Shown piece by piece: positions 1,307 to 11,999 of a DNA stretch of 41,766 nucleotides. Under the pieces are notes generated by a model, which searched no databases, was not told where the DNA came from, and worked only from the letters and a program-made list of their open reading frames with translations. The position numbers and the translations under genes are program-made. This DNA comes from a virus. Lineage: Duplodnaviria > Heunggongvirae > Uroviricota > Caudoviricetes. The DNA lies in the IMG/VR virus record IMGVR_UViG_2531839131_000018. One strand, given 5' to 3'. The stretch's first letter is position 1; each line of letters begins with the position of its first letter.

Positions 1307-3673
1307 TTAAAAATCAACCGGATTCGGGATCAGTTTTTGCCAGATTGCTGAAACGTATTTTGCCTGGTGACGGGCATCATCCAGCGCATTGTGGCGCACG
1401 CCTTCAAATGGAATAACGATTCTGGCATCAAAGTCGATTGTTTTTCCCAGCTCAACGATTGTGCGTACATCGCGATCGTTGTAGTAACGCCACGGGCAGG
1501 GGATCCCCTGCCGTTCGTATGAACGGCGCAAAATCGTGTTGTCGAAGTTGGCTCCATTTCCCCAAACCTGAACAAAAAATTCACCGGAGTTTGCGTCGAT
1601 AAATTCCCGCAATTGTAACAGTGCATCATCTAACGGGATTTCATCGGTCATAATGGCAGATTGCGCTTCGCGTGATTGCTTAAGCCACCATTTAATGGTG
1701 TCCCGATCAATGACTCCGCCAGCAGTTTCCAGATCGATAGTCTTACTAAATTCCGGTCCCATATCTCCGGTTTGCGGATCGAAGAATATTGCACCTATTG
1801 AGATAATCGGGGCATCAGGATTGTTTCCCATGGTTTCAAGGTCGATCATTAGATGGTCACATGTCCTGCTGGTGGATGCGTCTATATGATGACCGTTCAT
1901 ATTAATTAAGGGATCTGTCACCTCGCCAGTTTCACTATCGCTGGCATGATGCTGATTGCCGCCAGGGTTCTCCTTGTGTGGATGTTCAGCACCTTCCATT
2001 TCCTCCGGATCATTTTCCTGAACTTCAACCTGATTCTCTTCATTGAATGTTTCCTGGTATGTTGCGTCGCCCATCGCCGCGCCACAATCAGGGCAGTTGC
2101 CCCCACCGCTCTGACCGCAGGTGGTGCAGACTTTTTCCGTTTCTTTCTGGTTCTGGTTCACAGAGTCGAGGGTTTCAATCCCCTTAACCCATTTTGGATC
2201 GTTCGGGTCGCTAATCCCTTCAACAAATTCTCCGCGAGAGGCAGCCAGTAATTTGTCTGCATCGACATGATTTTTGGGCGGAATGTTTTTCCGGGCTTCA
2301 TGGAGTTCTGCCCGCAGTTTCTGATATTTCGCATCAACAGAATTTACCTGTGACTGAGCATCCAGCGGCTGCGTGTTCTGATGATGTTCAGTTGCATTCG
2401 GTTCCACTGTTTCAGCCGTTGCCTGTTCATCTGCCATTGCGCCAGATGGTTGTGGTTTTTCTTCATCGTCCTGTTTTCCTTCTTCTGTTACTCGCTGCGG
2501 CATCGGGGCAGAGGAGCGACCGCAGGCAATATCCACGATTTCCGGATCAGGGTTGGCATGATCGGTTTCAGTCAGTACTTTGTTCAGATATTCAGTGACG
2601 TGTGCGGGGATGACCTCGATCCCAATTGGTGCTTCTTTCACGGACGCAACCACGATGGCGCGGGAATAATCCAGCCCGCCAGGCATAGTGATGAATTTGT
2701 CGCGGAAAACAGAAAAGGGTGGTTTATTTTCAGCGATAATTTCCTCAATGCGTTTAGCATGTGCCGGATGAAGGTTATAGATGTCCACGTCCATTGAACG
2801 GGCCAGTACGCCAGTGGCTACATCGCGCGCCAGTGACGTCAGATCGTGGACGAAACCTTCGCCGCGATCGGTGAGGTTCCCGCCGCCAGCATTAGCACCG
2901 GAAGCCGTGCGAGTGATGCGTGAAACACGATTCCCTTTTCGCCATTCTTTTGTCAGAAGACCGCGATCAATGTGTTCGGTATCCAGCCAGGCTGAAATGA
3001 AATTCTTAAATTCATTGGGCTGATGTTTTTTCGTGATAGAGAACACTGCCTTAATTGCATCAGTCAGGCGGAGCAGGGCGGCATTATCCAGAGTTGTCGG
3101 TTCTGCCATGCTGCGTATGGCCAACAGCAGATTCTGGACATAGCTGTTTTCCTGATCCATCTCAAGAGCAGTAATGTGTTTGCGTTGTTCACGGGTGGCA
3201 TGATGCAGGTATTTCCGATCCCCGGCTGCATACGTAAAAATGTGCAGAAGACGCTGTGTGAACCGCAAAGTGGCTACAGAGACTTCGCAATCCTGGCAAT
3301 CCTCATGGGCGTCTGCCTGCGCGTTTTCTTCCTGGCCTCCCGCCAGTTCTTTGGTTTCTTGAGCATTATCCTGGTGGTGAATGTCGTCTGGCGCTGCTCC
3401 CGGTTTTAGTTCCCAGGTCATGGAGTCTTTGCTGAGTTGATAGCGTTCACTCCAGGTAAAATCGATCTCACCTTCAGGGGGAAGGTCATTAACGACAGGA
3501 AAATTTGTGGCAACAGCTTTAAAATAGTTGCTCAGTTTTTTACCTGACTTAACGATCAGGTAGTCCAGAGTGGCACGGGTCGATTCAAAATCATCACTTG
3601 CCCACAGGATGACGTCAGGTTCACCGGATGATTTTTTCGCTTTCCGTAAAAGGAAGAGTGGTTTTGTGCTCAT
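1307..3673 (-). CDS. Large early protein with C-terminal DnaQ-like DEDDh 3'-5' exonuclease domain (788 aa); N-terminal region resembles the non-catalytic part of RecE (from memory)
   Basis: C-terminal motifs IDLETMG (Exo I), [13 protein letters not shown] (Exo II), [13 protein letters not shown] (Exo III, DEDDh); CTTCGQ..CPDCG zinc-ribbon-like motif; acidic low-complexity linkers. N-terminus [21 protein letters not shown] recalled as RecE-like, unverified. Confidence 0.8.
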
Positions 3674-3772
3674 TGTTTTTTAACCTCAACTCAGATTAAA
3701 ATTACTGCGAGTGATGAATGAATGTCCCAGGTTCTTCACTCAGGCCTGCACACTGTGCAGGCTTTCTTTTTT

Positions 3773-4048
3773 TCAGATTTCACCGTTTAATTTCATTGCG
3801 ATCAGGGTTGCCAGAAATCCGGCTTTTTTTTCTGCGGGCAGATTCTTTCCGATGTGAAACAGGCACATTTTTTTGACACCTTCGTGAAGTGTTTTAACGT
3901 TGCCTGATGGACCGTCGATATCAACCACAGTGAATGGGGTTTCTTTATTTTCTGTTTTAATCACGTAGCCAATACGCTTTCCTTCCAGATTAACTTCGTG
4001 AACAATGTCATCAGTAGTTACAACAGTGGCTTCATAACTGGTAATCAT
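3773..4048 (-). CDS. Hypothetical small early protein (91 aa), possibly RacC-like
   Basis: ATG preceded by AAGGAG at 6-nt spacing (reverse complement of 4049-4066); ORF MITSYEATVV... Family assignment is a guess from length and position. Confidence 0.55.
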   Translation of the reverse strand: MITSYEATVVTTDDIVHEVNLEGKRIGYVIKTENKETPFTVVDIDGPSGNVKTLHEGVKKMCLFHIGKNLPAEKKAGFLATLIAMKLNGEI

Positions 4049-4132: not shown

Positions 4133-4324
4133 TTAAAGCCCTGCCGGGACTTCGTTATTATCCATGCGAATAACTTTATCGACCGGATAACAGTTACCGG
4201 GAATTTTCTGTTCCGCTGCGGCAGCCATGCATTCTTTCATTGAGCCGTATACGCCAGTAACCATGTCAACCGGTTCACCGGAAACAAGAAAAACCGTCAG
4301 AACAAGTGCAAATGTGGTATTCAT
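4133..4324 (-). CDS. Small secreted or membrane-anchored protein with N-terminal signal-like segment (63 aa)
   Basis: MNTTFALVLTVFLVSG hydrophobic N-terminus; its ATG overlaps the stop of the upstream gene (ATGA), indicating translational coupling. Confidence 0.5.
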   Translation of the reverse strand: MNTTFALVLTVFLVSGEPVDMVTGVYGSMKECMAAAAEQKIPGNCYPVDKVIRMDNNEVPAGL

Positions 4325-4509
4325 TGCCAGCATCCTTTTTGCATCAGGCGTAAACGGGCCAGCATTGAAACAATGCATATTTGATTTAATAGCTCCCGTT
4401 CGTGTTTTCTCTTATTAATGGCATCTTCAGTAAATACGGGGTTACTGATTTTGACACCAATTTCAAAACAACCTTCAGACGTATTGACGTTTGGTAATAA
4501 CGTTTCCAT
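4321..4509 (-). CDS. Hypothetical small early protein (62 aa), possibly Kil-like
   Basis: METLLPNVNTSEGC...; GAGGA Shine-Dalgarno 7 nt upstream of ATG; stop overlaps start of downstream gene. Confidence 0.5.
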   Translation of the reverse strand: METLLPNVNTSEGCFEIGVKISNPVFTEDAINKRKHERELLNQICIVSMLARLRLMQKGCWQ

Positions 4510-5091
4510 TATCGCGTCCTCAACAATGAATTTTGTGATGCGGTGCCTGGTGCCTCCAGGTGACGTTAACCAGTTAACAATTAACGCCGGATACAGAGAA
4601 CCCACCCATAAGAACCAATACGGAGGTCAACTAGCCTTTTTAACTGTTCCGCGTGCGCTTAGCCGCATTCACCGCATCACAAAATTCACTTTAAAAAGGG
4701 CGGCAGAGCAGTCACGGAGTAAAACTGATACCGCCAAACGTCACCAGAAAATTGATAACAGAGGGCGTTGCAGCGGAGTTGTCACTTAAGTGTATGGTCA
4801 ACCTGACAACCCGGTGCTTCATCGGGAAGACATGAACCCCCCGCCATACTTACCGCCGCGCCATTTCGCGGAGTGCCACAACCGGAAGCGCACGGTCGAC
4901 GAAAATTTAACGACAGGCTATCTATGAACCAGCTACCTCGCCGTGCGCTTTCGCGTTATGGTCTGACTTTTCAGGGAAATATCCTTTCAGTAAACTGTCA
5001 GTTCCGGATGCTCACCCGTGTCCGGCGCACGCACTCCACCTCACCCGTGGAGAACTCCTTAATTACCAACCTTAGCTTCGTTGGTTAGCTA

Positions 5092-6097: not shown

Positions 6098-6388
6098 TTA
6101 TTCGCTGTTACTGGGATATTGTTGGCGAGCATGTGCCACGCTTACAATTTCAATGCTTGAGGCAGCTACTTTGTACAGTATTATGTAGTTAGGGTGAGCC
6201 ACTATCTCTCTCAATCCAGAAACCCGTTCGCTTGGCGGATATAGGTACGGATGCTCAGATAGGGGTAGTACAGATGTTTCAATGCGTATTTTTAGTCTGC
6301 GCGCTGCCGGAGGGTTCTCCTTGGCGATGTAAGTTATGATCTGACGCAAATCATCGCGAGCAGACGGTAACCATAATATGGGCAGCAT
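6098..6388 (-). CDS. parE: ParE/RelE-superfamily type II toxin (96 aa)
   Basis: MLPILWLPSARDDLRQIITYIAKENPPAARRLKIRIETSVLPLSEHPYLY..GLREIVAHPNYIILYKV..IEIVSVAHARQ matches the ParE pattern; start overlaps antitoxin stop by 1 nt. Confidence 0.8.
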   Translation of the reverse strand: MLPILWLPSARDDLRQIITYIAKENPPAARRLKIRIETSVLPLSEHPYLYPPSERVSGLREIVAHPNYIILYKVAASSIEIVSVAHARQQYPSNSE

Positions 6389-6579
6389 TACACGCTCTCG
6401 CTTTCCGTGGCAATTTGATTGATGATTTTTTCCATTTTTGCCATTACTTCGTCGTGCGGAATTGCCGGGCGTGGATCTGCCAAACTTGCTGCAACCTTGG
6501 CGCGCAACCATTCGTTATAGCTGTTTTCTTGCTCGATAGTTTCAAATTCTGAGACTATTGGCGAAAGAACCGTGTTCAT
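6388..6579 (-). CDS. Small antitoxin (63 aa), PaaA2-like by size and position
   Basis: 63-aa acidic ORF directly upstream of and overlapping the ParE-like gene; GAGAGG Shine-Dalgarno 6 nt upstream. Resemblance to PaaA2 of the PaaR2-PaaA2-ParE2 module is from memory. Confidence 0.7.
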   Translation of the reverse strand: MNTVLSPIVSEFETIEQENSYNEWLRAKVAASLADPRPAIPHDEVMAKMEKIINQIATESESV

Positions 6580-6605: not shown

Positions 6606-7004
6606 TTATGCTCGACGTCCTTTTTGAGCGGCGAGCCATCTTGCAACGGTGCGATCCATTGATTCTTTTTTGTCTTTCATGTCCTTAAGCATTTGTTCTT
6701 GCTCTTCTTCTGGGAACGCCCCAAATGTTTGAAGTAAATCTCTTTGGCGCGGACCTATTTTCATTGAGTCAGGCACTACAACCTGTTCATCCTCGCTCGG
6801 AGGAAGCATGAACCAAAAAATAGGTCGTGCGGTTATTTGTGAAAGTCGATCTAAATTGTCAGGATTTGGACTAACCAAGCCCGCAGCCCATCGCTGCACT
6901 GTTTGTTGCGACACCCCAACTAATTTCCCAAGCTCCGCTTGACTCCAGCCTGTTTCAGACAAGAGTTTCTTTATTCTATATGCAGTGATCTCGAGTGTTT
7001 TCAT
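6606..7004 (-). CDS. HTH (XRE/Cro-CI family) repressor, RacR/PaaR2-like; likely prophage immunity repressor (132 aa)
   Basis: HTH motif SQAELGKLVGVSQQTVQRWAAG; divergent from a Cro-like gene; operator-like palindromes in the 7005-7110 intergenic region; co-oriented with the downstream toxin pair. Confidence 0.75.
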   Translation of the reverse strand: MKTLEITAYRIKKLLSETGWSQAELGKLVGVSQQTVQRWAAGLVSPNPDNLDRLSQITARPIFWFMLPPSEDEQVVVPDSMKIGPRQRDLLQTFGAFPEEEQEQMLKDMKDKKESMDRTVARWLAAQKGRRA

Positions 7005-7040
7005 ACCAACAATTCTACTCAAAAAATGAGTAATACGCGA

Positions 7041-7080
7041 CACACAAAAAACGAGTTTACACATACACGTTTTTTGTGTA
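7041..7080. promoter_or_regulatory. Operator-like inverted repeat in the divergent repressor/cro intergenic region
   Basis: ACACAAAAAACG (7042-7053) and CGTTTTTTGTGT (7068-7079) are near-perfect reverse complements; candidate -35 TTTACA at 7056-7061 lies between them. Confidence 0.45.
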
Positions 7081-7110
7081 ACCTCCTTTCGCATAATGGA
7101 GGTACAAATA

Positions 7111-7383
7111 ATGAATGAACATATTAAGAAAAAGGTTGCGGAAAAATTCTCCCAGCGAGAACTGGCTATGCTGATGAGCACGAAACAACAAAGTGTATCT
7201 CGTTGGTTCAACTCTAAGTTCCCTGCATCAAGGGTGATTCATTTGTGTCAATTGATGCAGTGGGAGGTTGTTCCCCATGAGCTCCGACCAGACATATACC
7301 CTAACCCAACCGACGGTTTACCTGTTGGATTCAAGGTTAACACATCAAATGCACCGGAGTTGATTCATGAAAATCAAGCATGA
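7111..7383 (+). CDS. Cro-like / YdaS-like HTH protein (90 aa)
   Basis: GGAGGT Shine-Dalgarno 6 nt upstream; HTH-like segment SQRELAMLMSTKQQSVSRWF; divergent from the repressor. Confidence 0.65.
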   Translation: MNEHIKKKVAEKFSQRELAMLMSTKQQSVSRWFNSKFPASRVIHLCQLMQWEVVPHELRPDIYPNPTDGLPVGFKVNTSNAPELIHENQA

Positions 7384-7792
7384 ACACATCCGCATGGCGA
7401 TGAATGCCTGGGCGCATCCGGACGGCGAGAAAGTACCGGCTGCAGAGATTGCCAAAGCGTATTTTGAGCTGGGAATGACGTTTCCTGAACTGTACGGCTA
7501 CAGCCATCCGGAAGCCCTGGCTCGCAATACTCAGAAAATATTCCGCTGGGTGGAGAAAGACACCCCTGATGCTGTTGAAAAAATTCAGGCGTTGTTACCA
7601 GCGATCGAAAAAGCAATGCCACCTCTGCTGGTGGCCAGAATGCGCAGCCACAGTTCAGCTTATTTTCGGGAGCTGGTGGAGACGCGGGAGCGACTGGTGA
7701 GAGACGCTGATGATTTTGTCGCAGTGGCGATCGCTGGTTTCAACCAGATGAATCGTGGTGGTCCGGCAGGTAATGCAGTGGCTGTACATTAA
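7367..7792 (+). CDS. YdaT-like protein (141 aa; CII-like or toxin-like family, function uncertain)
   Basis: Position directly after the cro-like gene with overlapping start; length and composition fit YdaT-like proteins of Rac-type prophages (from memory). Confidence 0.55.
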   Translation: MKIKHEHIRMAMNAWAHPDGEKVPAAEIAKAYFELGMTFPELYGYSHPEALARNTQKIFRWVEKDTPDAVEKIQALLPAIEKAMPPLLVARMRSHSSAYFRELVETRERLVRDADDFVAVAIAGFNQMNRGGPAGNAVAVH

Positions 7793-11632: not shown

Positions 11633-11843
11633 AAACGGTTTGCAGTGAAAGGGGAGTTAAGTAGAATTGCTGCGGGTGCTTGAGGCTATCTGTCTCAGGC
11701 ATGAACACCAAAAGGCAGATAGAGAAAAGCCCCAGTTAACATTACGCGTCCTGCAAGACGCTTAACATTAATCTGAGGCCCAATCTATGTCTCACAAATG
11801 TAGGTTAGCCTCTTACGTGCCGAAAGGCAAGGAGAAGCAGGCT

Positions 11844-11999
11844 ATGAAGCAGCAAAAGGCGATGTTAATCGCCCTTATCGTCATCTGTTTAACCGTCATA
11901 GTGACGGCACTGGTAACGAGGAAAGACCTCTGCGAGGTACGAATCCGAACCGGCCAGACGGAGGTCGCTGTCTTCACAGCTTACGAACCTGAGGAGTAA
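11844..11999 (+). CDS. hok: Hok/Gef-family type I toxin (51 aa), closest to HokD/RelF from memory
   Basis: MKQQKAMLIALIVICLTVIVTALVTRKDLCEVRIRTGQTEVAVFTAYEPEE shows the Hok signature (transmembrane segment, conserved Cys, C-terminal EVAVF..YE); an in-frame upstream ATG at 11787 gives a mok-like extension. Confidence 0.85.
   Translation: MKQQKAMLIALIVICLTVIVTALVTRKDLCEVRIRTGQTEVAVFTAYEPEE

What the first reader, a model, noticed from the sequence alone, without database searches (positions are those of the whole stretch)
3745..3761. Perfect 8-bp-arm palindrome with a T-run on the strand opposite to the flanking genes
CCTGCACA-C-TGTGCAGG followed by CTTTCTTTTTTT reads as a plus-strand terminator, yet both neighbouring genes are on the minus strand. 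It may stop antisense or convergent transcription into the early-left operon, or act as a protein-binding site.
Basis: seen in the sequence. Interest (0 to 1): 0.2.

Follow-up and report, generated by a model that had tools for sequence, protein, structure and literature searches.

The report
Terminator of a prophage antisense RNA
The hairpin plus T-run is a real plus-strand terminator that most likely ends a roughly 62-base antisense RNA made between the prophage genes racC and recE; this RNA is already catalogued in E. coli K-12 as candidate "t29", its function is untested, and the finding is correct but fairly ordinary.

Summary
CCTGCACA-C-TGTGCAGG lies at 3745-3761, and the arms are really 9 bp (3744-3762). 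TTTCTTTTTTT follows at 3763-3773, in the 99-nt spacer between racC (3773-4048, -) and a recE-like gene (1307-3673, -).

A palindrome alone is chance-level. A GC-rich perfect stem followed by a T-run occurs 3 times in the window against 0.035 expected.

The element is present in 131 of 139 related loci, in three allele families. Stem pairs covary (95.6% paired), and it always co-occurs with an upstream GATTAAAAT -10 box.

For the E. coli K-12 ortholog, published Term-seq maps a strong plus-strand 3' end in the T-tract. Published dRNA-seq maps a class I start site 8 nt after that -10 box. Together they define a ~64-nt RNA listed as sRNA "t29" (recE-racC).

The hairpin is therefore the intrinsic terminator of a short cis-antisense RNA.

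The RNA's function is unknown. An OOP-like role on the racC-recE message is inference only. The transcribed segment is a divergent island: 58% identical to K-12, with flanks at 94-96%.

Interest is low to moderate.

The parts
3744..3762 (+). Terminator stem-loop GCCTGCACA-C-TGTGCAGGC. It has 9 perfect pairs and folds with a 3-nt loop. It extends to 3742-3764 through a G.U and an A-U pair.
   Evidence: -14.4 kcal/mol, z = -5.0. Covariation over 16 distinct variants gives 95.6% of cells paired, 4 pairs with changes on both sides, and 0 of 500 shuffles as good.
3763..3773 (+). T-tract TTTCTTTTTTT (10 T of 11) directly after the stem. By analogy with K-12 the predicted RNA 3' end is about 3769-3771. 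T3773 is shared with the racC stop codon.
   Evidence: A T-rich tail is kept in all 131 loci that carry the hairpin, with 6-10 T in the next 11 bases. The K-12 Term-seq 3' end lies 7 nt after GCAGGC.
3697..3702 (+). Predicted -10 box TAAAAT, within the conserved GATTAAAAT, of the antisense-RNA promoter.
   Evidence: The block 3669-3703 is 100% identical to K-12. The K-12 class I TSS FWD_(I)-1415447 maps 8 nt downstream of this hexamer. GATTAAAAT and the hairpin co-occur: 131 loci have both, 8 have neither, none has only one.
3673..3678 (+). Weak -35-like TTGTTT (3 of 6 matches, 18-bp spacer). It overlaps the recE start codon on the other strand.
   Evidence: Read from the sequence. It is too weak for the consensus scan to list. 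This part is inference.
3709..3771 (+). Predicted antisense RNA of about 62 nt, ortholog of K-12 candidate sRNA t29 (allele A). It has a 5' stem-loop at 3709-3741 and the terminator hairpin, and is fully complementary to the racC-recE intercistronic mRNA.
   Evidence: The fold is -22.8 kcal/mol, z = -3.1. The K-12 ortholog folds the same way, z = -4.9, as do all 18 A and B variants folded. The ends are inferred from K-12 data. The ORFs that start inside it run through the terminator and are not shared between alleles.
3704..3772 (.). Divergent allelic island that coincides with the transcribed antisense RNA.
   Evidence: Window against K-12: recE 5' end plus promoter 96.2% identical, island 58.2%, racC 93.5%.
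3773..4048 (-). racC homolog (91 aa). Its stop codon abuts the T-tract.
   Evidence: 95% identical to K-12 RacC. Annotated as racC in related records.
1307..3673 (-). recE-like gene (788 aa). Its start codon and Shine-Dalgarno sequence lie within or next to the antisense promoter.
   Evidence: Pfam Exonuc_VIII PF06630 at residues 2-182 and Rv2179c-like exonuclease PF16473 at residues 607-778. Annotated as exodeoxyribonuclease VIII in related records.

Best explanation
The hairpin and its T-run form a Rho-independent terminator that works on the plus strand. It ends a short, constitutively made cis-antisense RNA of about 62 nt.

This RNA starts about 8 nt after a conserved TAAAAT -10 box, near 3709/3710, about 37 nt upstream of the recE start codon on the opposite strand. 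It runs antisense through the racC-recE intercistronic spacer. It folds into a 5' stem-loop and the terminator hairpin, and is released in the U-tract about 2 nt before the racC stop codon. It is the allele-A ortholog of E. coli K-12 candidate sRNA t29.

Shown for the K-12 ortholog: a primary start site, a strong plus-strand 3' end in the U-tract, and a discrete small RNA.

Shown here: the terminator anatomy, its statistical excess, covariation of the stem, and strict co-occurrence of promoter and terminator.

Inferred only: the terminator gives the RNA its stable 3' hairpin and keeps antisense polymerases from running into racC, dicB and DicF. The RNA then pairs with read-through racC-recE mRNA and lowers recE expression, by RNase III processing as with lambda OOP and cII, or by promoter interference.
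For: (1) Anatomy: 9-10 pairs, 6 of them G-C, a 3-nt loop, -14.4 to -15.5 kcal/mol, then UUUCUUUUUUU. The minus strand has no U-tract.

(2) Excess over chance: 3 strict terminator-like sites against 0.035 expected.

(3) Conservation: present in 131 of 139 loci anchored on the recE start, in three allele families all of the form GCCTGC-N7-GCAGGC. Compensatory changes occur at pairs 2-24 (AU/UA), 3-23 and 10-16 (AU/GC, seen both between and within families). 95.6% of cells are paired and 0 of 500 shuffles reach this.

(4) Strand: three apparently independent one-sided C->T changes (GCCTGTACA, AGCCTGTG, TTCATTCAG) give G.U in the plus-strand RNA and C.A in the minus-strand RNA. For the two in the terminator stem, hairpin energy is -13.5 against -7.5 and -13.1 against -10.8 kcal/mol.

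(5) Published 3'-end mapping of the K-12 ortholog: position 1417486 (+), classed as antisense to racC, 185,664 and 146,140 reads. This exceeds SokC (66,698) and SgrS (6,222) in the same sheet (PMC7815308). The position was verified on NC_000913.3. No racC or recE entry appears in that paper's Rho-termination table.

(6) Published TSS: FWD_(I)-1415447, with sRNA 't29', recE-racC, orientation <- -> <- (PMC4681348 supplement). It maps to a G 8 nt after TAAAAT.

(7) The promoter block 3669-3703 is identical between the window and K-12. The -10 box and the hairpin always co-occur.

(8) All alleles fold into a 5' hairpin or hairpins plus the terminator, with z = -3.1, -4.9 and -5.8.
Against: There are no transcript data for this window's allele, whose RNA body is only about 58% identical to K-12.

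The -35 element is weak (3 of 6) and the consensus promoter scan does not list the promoter.

Converting the TSS from U00096.2 to U00096.3 coordinates uses an offset of 1976 that I recalled from memory. It was checked only to within 2 nt against the racR start.

The 143-nt extent given for t29 in PMC4681348 suggests some read-through past the K-12 terminator.

One variant, GTTATGCAGGC, is wobble-compatible only on the minus strand, so the strand test is 3 to 1 and weak.

The core GCCTGC/GCAGGC never varies, so most of the stem is uninformative.

The regulatory role is pure inference. The RNA does not cover the recE Shine-Dalgarno sequence. No Hfq RIL-seq or CLASH entry labelled racC was found, and no functional study was found.
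Confidence: 0.85

Rival explanations
1. The hairpin matters mainly in the sense (minus-strand) racC-recE mRNA. There it would act as a 3' stabiliser of a processed racC message, or as an RNase III or RNase E processing signal between the two cistrons. The T-run would then be incidental.
For: The hairpin sits 13 nt after the racC stop codon and folds equally well on the minus strand, at -14.2 kcal/mol, z = -4.4. Watson-Crick covariation cannot tell the strands apart. One apical variant is wobble-compatible only on the minus strand.
Against: A T-rich tail on the plus strand is kept in all three allele families and all 131 loci, which a sense-strand element would not need. Two of the three one-sided C->T changes fall in this stem and weaken the minus-strand hairpin by 2-6 kcal/mol. 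The third is in the 5' stem and is also plus-compatible only. A strong plus-strand 3' end is observed in K-12. A dual role remains possible.
Confidence: 0.12
2. It is a generic insulating terminator that stops pervasive antisense transcription arising inside recE and int. It would have no dedicated promoter and no discrete functional RNA in this phage.
For: K-12 has weak class II plus-strand start sites inside recE, FWD_(II)-1415269 and 1414535. The -35 of the proposed promoter is poor.
Against: A class I TSS lies 64 nt upstream of the 3' end in K-12, and the product is listed as a discrete sRNA. The -10 box is identical in this window and always co-occurs with the hairpin. The body folds into a conserved 5' hairpin in every allele.
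Confidence: 0.08
3. It is a DNA palindrome bound by a dimeric protein, such as an operator or a recombination site, with constant half-site spacing GCCTGC-N7-GCAGGC.
For: Both half-sites and the 7-bp spacing are invariant or nearly so across three otherwise diverged allele families.
Against: One-sided C->T changes break the palindrome but keep RNA pairing. Inner positions covary in the way base pairs do. The loop inverts or varies freely. There is no second copy of the motif in the window. The conserved adjacent T-tract and the mapped RNA 3' end have no explanation on this reading. The invariant core can be explained by linkage to the roughly 94%-conserved racC module.
Confidence: 0.03
4. It is a chance palindrome or a decaying relic with no present function.
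For: Perfect palindromes of this size are as frequent as in shuffled sequence.
Against: The stem-plus-T-run combination is about 85 times more frequent than expected. The stem shows compensatory changes and 95.6% pairing across alleles. The ortholog gives one of the stronger plus-strand Term-seq peaks seen in the part of the table read.
Confidence: 0.02

Closest known systems
E. coli K-12 Rac prophage candidate sRNA 't29' (recE-racC intergenic). Its TSS is in Romero et al. 2014 (PMC4681348 supplement, which cites Raghavan et al. 2011 as verification). Its 3' end is in the Adams et al. 2021 Term-seq data (PMC7815308).
   Same: It occupies the same locus and orientation, between recE and racC on the opposite strand. 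The promoter block is identical. It has the same GCCTGC-N7-GCAGGC terminator next to the racC stop codon, the same two-hairpin architecture, and a similar length (about 62 against 64 nt).
   Different: The transcribed body is a different allele, about 58% identical with indels. The stem has 9-10 pairs with a 3-nt loop, against 9 pairs with a 5-nt loop in K-12. The U-tract is longer and cleaner, UUUCUUUUUUU against UAUUUCUUU. No expression data exist for this allele. t29 itself is not annotated in RefSeq MG1655, and I found no functional study.
Bacteriophage lambda OOP RNA and its terminator. This comparison rests on my own knowledge (Krinke and Wulff 1987, 1990) and was not checked with the tools.
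   Same: Both are short (about 60-77 nt) structured antisense RNAs of a lambdoid phage. Each has its own promoter and intrinsic terminator lying opposite to both flanking genes. Each is expressed in the lysogen and is complementary to the junction of two early genes.
   Different: The location differs: the pL-side racC-recE spacer here, against the pR-side cII-O junction for OOP. This RNA does not overlap coding sequence, whereas OOP overlaps the 3' end of cII. No sequence similarity was evident and none was tested. RNase III-dependent target decay is demonstrated for OOP and only conjectured here.
Canonical Rho-independent (intrinsic) terminators
   Same: It has a GC-rich stem, a short loop and an immediately adjacent U-tract, with the 3' end 7-8 nt after the stem.
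   Different: Nothing essential differs. It is unidirectional, because there is no A-tract upstream on the plus strand, so it is not a bidirectional terminator.
RalA sRNA of the Rac prophage, the type I antitoxin of RalR (Guo et al. 2014, PMC4041452)
   Same: Both are small RNAs of the same prophage family, encoded opposite to early-left genes and ending in an intrinsic terminator.
   Different: RalA is a different gene. It lies opposite ydaC, several kb away, is 179 nt long and Hfq-dependent, and acts through a 16-nt repeat. No toxin partner is evident here.

Membership tests
Rho-independent (intrinsic) terminator | GC-rich stem of at least about 5-10 bp with a short (3-8 nt) loop and a stable fold | tested here: met
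   9-10 pairs, 6 of them G-C, a 3-nt loop, -14.4 to -15.5 kcal/mol, z = -5.0.
Rho-independent (intrinsic) terminator | U-rich tract beginning 0-2 nt after the stem on the transcribed strand | tested here: met
   TTTCTTTTTTT at 3763-3773 on the + strand. The - strand has CTGAGTGAAGAA after the stem. The tract is conserved in 131 of 131 hairpin-bearing loci.
Rho-independent (intrinsic) terminator | RNA 3' ends map within the U-tract in vivo and are not Rho-dependent | tested here: inconclusive
   Met for the K-12 ortholog. The Term-seq end at 1417486 (+) lies 7 nt after GCAGGC, and there is no racC or recE entry in the Rho-termination table. No data exist for the allele in this window.
Rho-independent (intrinsic) terminator | Transcription actually reaches it from an upstream promoter on the same strand | tested here: inconclusive
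   K-12 has a class I TSS 64 nt upstream. The -10 block is identical in the window. Promoter activity in this phage has not been measured.
Bidirectional terminator | A-tract upstream and U-tract downstream, so that both strands read hairpin plus U-run | tested here: not met
   The plus-strand sequence upstream is TTCTTCACTCAG. The minus-strand sequence downstream has only 2 U in 12 nt.
t29 sRNA locus of Rac-like prophages | Location between recE and racC, transcribed opposite to both | tested here: met
t29 sRNA locus of Rac-like prophages | Shared promoter (GATTAAAAT) and shared terminator core next to the racC stop codon | tested here: met
   Alignment, identity profile, and co-occurrence of 131 both / 8 neither / 0 one only.
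t29 sRNA locus of Rac-like prophages | Sequence homology of the RNA body | tested here: inconclusive
   Only residual similarity remains (AGTGA..ATGA..CC.GG..CACT), with 58% identity in a forced alignment. The two-hairpin fold is kept. I treat it as a diverged allele.
Cis-antisense regulator of the lambda OOP type | Pairing with the target mRNA causes RNase III-dependent cleavage or lowered expression of the overlapped gene | not testable with these tools
   Complementarity to the racC-recE spacer is complete by construction. No experimental data were found.
Hfq-dependent trans-acting sRNA | Recovered with Hfq in interactome data, with trans targets | tested here: not met
   No racC-labelled RNA appears in the RIL-seq-based tables of PMC8175672 or in the Hfq CLASH tables of PMC7213987. 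This is weak negative evidence, because it depends on how those tables label features. No complementarity above chance was found elsewhere in the window.
Rfam RNA families | Match at or near a family's gathering score | tested here: not met
   Nothing matched at 3500-4000. The best plus-strand hits scored about 16 bits against thresholds of 41-55.

The most novel reading that the evidence does not exclude
The transcribed body of this antisense RNA may be an exchangeable specificity cassette. Three unalignable alleles (A, B, C) sit between an identical promoter and an identical terminator core, in flanks that are 94-96% identical. A resident prophage's RNA could then silence or process the racC-recE message only of phages carrying the same allele. 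That would be an RNA-based, allele-specific control of RecE, which is reported as a retron trigger with RacC as a blocker (bioRxiv 10.1101/2020.06.22.160242), and diversification would be driven by competition between phages. The evidence does not exclude this. It supports it only through the divergent island and the conserved fold. The island is also simply the unconstrained part of an intergenic spacer, where mosaic joints would be tolerated.
Probability: 0.12. Interest if true: 0.55.

Novelty: new member of a known kind. Interest (0 to 1): 0.25.

Why it matters
The result explains why a terminator points the wrong way inside a prophage early operon. It belongs to a small antisense RNA gene tucked between racC and recE, found in about a third of complete E. 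coli genomes (1778 of 5426).

The RNA is abundant in K-12 data sets but is unannotated in RefSeq MG1655 and has not been studied. It lies next to recE, the recombineering exonuclease reported as a retron trigger, and racC, reported as a retron-toxin blocker.

If the RNA controls recE expression, that would bear on why recET is silent in Rac lysogens and on phage-defence interplay. As it stands, this is a correct but modest annotation point.

Tried and rejected
- **Rfam:** the gathering-threshold scan of the whole window and the permissive scan of 3500-4000 found no family for this RNA.
- **Literature:** searches for racC or recE with terminator, antisense, sRNA or t29 found no functional study. 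The first search was swamped by 'raccoon' and 'receptor' matches.
- **Papers not held, so not checked:** Raghavan 2011, Thomason 2015, Hershberg 2003 and Tjaden 2002. The origin of the name t29 (Tjaden 2002 arrays) is from my memory only.
- **No supplements held:** the RIL-seq paper (PMC5145812), the 3'-UTR Term-seq paper (PMC9023263) and the 3'-seq comparison (PMC12259150).
- **No racC entry:** the Bar 2021 RIL-seq tables and the Iosub 2020 CLASH tables.
- **RalA** was considered and rejected as the same RNA, because it lies opposite ydaC.
- **Small protein:** the plus-strand ORFs starting at 3711 and 3718 run through the terminator and are not shared with the K-12 allele, so this was rejected (sequence).
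- **Trans targets:** only chance-level matches of 11 nt or less elsewhere in the window, E >= 0.4.
- **Shine-Dalgarno-sequestering hairpin** in the recE leader, pairing AUUUUAAUCU with AGGUUAAAA: it folds but is not better than shuffles, z = -1.15, so it is not claimed.
- **Palindrome significance:** the palindrome alone is not significant.

Full report
**What is in the sequence**

The window reads GCCTGCACA-C-TGTGCAGGC at 3744-3762, followed by TTTCTTTTTTT at 3763-3773. The consensus scan counts 10 pairs over 3742-3764 with a 3-nt loop.

The element lies in a 99-nt spacer between two minus-strand genes. One is a RacC homolog at 3773-4048 (91 aa, 95% identical to K-12 RacC). The other is a 788-aa RecE-like gene at 1307-3673. 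The last T of the run is the first base of the racC stop codon. Read on the minus strand, the hairpin has an A-run before it and CUGAGUGAAGAA after it. So it has terminator form on the plus strand only.

**Is it more than chance?**

As a bare palindrome it is not. Perfect inverted repeats with arms of 8 bp or more are as common as in dinucleotide shuffles, 9 entries at 6 loci against 6.5 +/- 3.4. The loose terminator scan is also at background, 11 against 12.9.

The full combination is different. I defined it as a perfect stem of 8 bp or more with at least 5 G/C, followed by at least 6 T in the next 9 bases. It occurs three times on both strands of the window (3744, 20699 and 40494, all on the plus strand). 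The shuffle mean is 0.035, and none of 200 shuffles reached three. The hairpin RNA folds at -14.4 kcal/mol with z = -5.0.

**Where the window comes from**

The region matches Rac-like and Qin-like lambdoid prophages of E. coli. The neighbours are annotated recE (exodeoxyribonuclease VIII) and racC. A 301-nt query around the site hits 1778 of 5426 complete E. coli genomes.

The surrounding early-left operon on the minus strand reads, from right to left:
- an HTH repressor-like gene
- ParE
- a gene of unknown function
- DicF RNA
- DicB
- a DUF1482 protein
- RacC
- the RecE-like gene
- the integrase

**Comparative evidence**

I anchored on the invariant recE start region (CATTGTTTTTTAACCTCAAC) and collected 139 loci, the window included, from genome and viral collections. 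Of these, 131 carry a hairpin of the form GCCTG(C/T)-N7-G(C/T)AGGC followed by a T-rich tail with 6-10 T in 11 bases. The other 8 have a different upstream gene and no hairpin.

There are three allele families:
- **A**, the window type: GCCTGCACA C TGTGCAGGC.
- **B**, the K-12 type: AGCCTGCG CCATA CGCAGGCT.
- **C**, found in Citrobacter and some viral contigs, with a 135-nt spacer: AAGCCTGCA CTTGT TGCAGGCTT or GCCTGCG CCTGT CGCAGGC.

On 16 distinct variants, the 10-pair helix has 95.6% of cells paired. Four pairs show changes on both sides, including AU/UA at 2-24 and AU/GC at 10-16. The AU/GC change at 10-16 is seen both between families and within family C. None of 500 shuffles matched the pairing or the covariation score, and slid controls drop to 24-43% paired.

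The loop varies freely. In families A and B it also occurs as its exact reverse complement (C/G, and CCATA/TATGG).

Three one-sided C->T changes appear to be independent. They are GCCTGTACA in A, AGCCTGTG in B, and TTCATTCAG in the 5' stem of A. All give G.U in the plus-strand RNA and C.A in the minus-strand RNA. One apical variant goes the other way. This is a weak but consistent hint that the plus-strand RNA is the molecule under selection.

**Published transcript ends at the orthologous site**

Adams et al. 2021 (eLife, PMC7815308, Supplementary file 1) list a Term-seq 3' end at MG1655 position 1417486 on the + strand. It is classed as antisense to racC, with 185,664 average reads in the first sheet (LB, OD 0.4) and 146,140 in a second. 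The surrounding sequence, TCTTGCCGGATACACACTGTTCATAGCCTGCGCCATACGCAGGCTATTTCT|TTCAGATTTC, is the allele-B hairpin. racC occurs three times in that three-sheet file; two of the occurrences were displayed.

For scale, SokC has 66,698 reads and SgrS 6,222 in the same sheet. Neither racC nor recE occurs in that paper's Rho-termination table.

On NC_000913.3 the position is the T in GCAGGCTATTTCT. It lies 7 nt after the stem core and 2 nt before the racC stop codon at 1417488-1417490. The A of the recE start codon is at 1417386.

Romero et al. 2014 (Mol Microbiol, PMC4681348, supplement) list a class I primary start site, FWD_(I)-1415447. They also list an sRNA 't29' with flanking genes recE-racC, orientation <- -> <-, coordinates 1415447-1415590, and 'previously verified: Raghavan et al. 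2011'.

To convert between genome versions I used an offset of 1976, recalled from memory. I checked it to within 2 nt using the leaderless racR start site. With that offset the TSS is the G at 1417423, 8 nt after TAAAAT, and the RNA is about 64 nt. The 143-nt extent in that table suggests some read-through. RefSeq MG1655 annotates no RNA gene at this site.

**Transfer to this window**

The block 3669-3703 holds the recE start codon and Shine-Dalgarno sequence on one strand. On the other strand it holds a TTGTTT -35-like element and the GATTAAAAT -10 box. It is identical to K-12.

The -10 box and the hairpin co-occur without exception: 131 loci have both, 8 have neither, and none has only one.

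By analogy, the RNA here starts at G3709 or A3710 and ends near 3769-3771. It folds into a 5' stem-loop (3709-3741, GAGUGA/UCACUC) and the terminator, at -22.8 kcal/mol, z = -3.1. The K-12 RNA folds the same way with z = -4.9, and the family C RNA has three hairpins with z = -5.8.

The window's U-tract is longer than the K-12 tract. Termination should therefore be at least as efficient here, but this is inference.

**The divergent island**

Between the window and K-12, the recE 5' end plus promoter is 96.2% identical and racC is 93.5% identical. The segment 3704-3772 is only 58% identical and has indels. This is almost exactly the transcribed RNA.

One reading is that the RNA body is an exchangeable allele. 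The other is that this is simply the unconstrained part of the spacer, where mosaic joints are tolerated. I cannot separate these two readings.

**Mechanism and its status**

Well supported: the element is an intrinsic terminator on the plus strand that ends a short antisense RNA with its own promoter.

Inferred only:
- The hairpin also stabilises the RNA and shields racC, dicB and DicF from antisense polymerases.
- The RNA pairs with read-through racC-recE mRNA, over positions -37 to about -100 relative to the recE AUG.
- That pairing lowers recE expression by RNase III processing, as lambda OOP does to cII (my own knowledge, not checked here), or by promoter interference.

The RNA does not cover the recE Shine-Dalgarno sequence. 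I found no evidence for Hfq-dependent trans action and no trans target within the window.

**Rivals**

- **Sense-strand stabiliser or processing hairpin.** This remains possible as a second role. It does not explain the conserved plus-strand T-tract or the mapped plus-strand end.
- **Protein-binding palindrome.** This is disfavoured by the wobble-type changes, the free loop, the absence of a second copy and the conserved T-tract.
- **Chance.** This is excluded for the ortholog and is very unlikely here.

**Comparison with what is known, and verdict**

This is the allele-A counterpart of a catalogued but uncharacterised K-12 sRNA candidate. Its architecture is closest to lambda OOP. It matches no Rfam family.

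Its main interpretation is supported and can be made sharper. I rate the novelty as a new member of a known kind, and the interest as low to moderate.

Noticed in passing
window 3704-3772 against L002 (E. coli C600/K-12): The transcribed antisense-RNA segment is a sharply bounded divergent island, 58% identical, between flanks that are 96.2% and 93.5% identical. At least three unalignable alleles exist among 131 loci. All keep the same promoter box and terminator core.
   Followed up: partly
window 3744-3762 and the orthologous hairpins in L028, L006, L037 and others: In both allele families the hairpin also occurs as its exact reverse complement (central C/G, and CCATA/TATGG). This looks like small loop inversions at a palindrome.
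   Followed up: partly
window 1307-3673 (-): The 'recE' here has the N-terminal Exonuc_VIII domain (PF06630, residues 2-182) joined to a C-terminal Rv2179c-like 3'-5' exonuclease domain (PF16473, residues 607-778). It is followed directly by the integrase (1-1020), with no recT. It is therefore not a classical RecET pair.
   Followed up: no
window 4698-4749 (-): A full-length DicF RNA (Rfam RF00039, 76.7 bits) lies just upstream of dicB (4321-4605) in the same early-left operon as racC and recE. The arrangement is a Qin/Rac mosaic.
   Followed up: no
window 11674-11849 (+): There is a sok antitoxin RNA match (RF01794, 120 bits), which implies a hok/sok-type type I toxin-antitoxin locus inside the prophage.
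   Followed up: no
window 6098-6511 (-) and 6606-7211 (-): A ParE-family toxin gene sits directly next to the HTH repressor-like gene at the head of the early-left operon. A YdaT-like gene (7367-7792, +) lies on the other side.
   Followed up: no
window 17042-17117 and 17215-17291 (+): Two phage-borne tRNA genes, tRNA-Met (CAT) and tRNA-Arg (TCT).
   Followed up: no
window 20699-20718 and 40494-40515 (+): These are the only two other sites in the window that meet the strict terminator definition: AGCCCCGCAAATGCGGGGCT+TTTTT and AGCCCGCCGGTTCAGGCGGGCT+TTTTT.
   Followed up: no
window 1495-1512: A perfect 18-bp palindrome with no loop, GGCAGGGGATCCCCTGCC, lies inside the recE-like coding sequence. 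It contains a GATC site.
   Followed up: no
window 3679-3703 (-): In the recE leader, the complement of the antisense -10 box (AUUUUAAUCU) can pair with AGGUUAAAA and sequester the Shine-Dalgarno sequence. The block is 100% conserved, but the fold is not better than shuffles (z = -1.15).
   Followed up: partly
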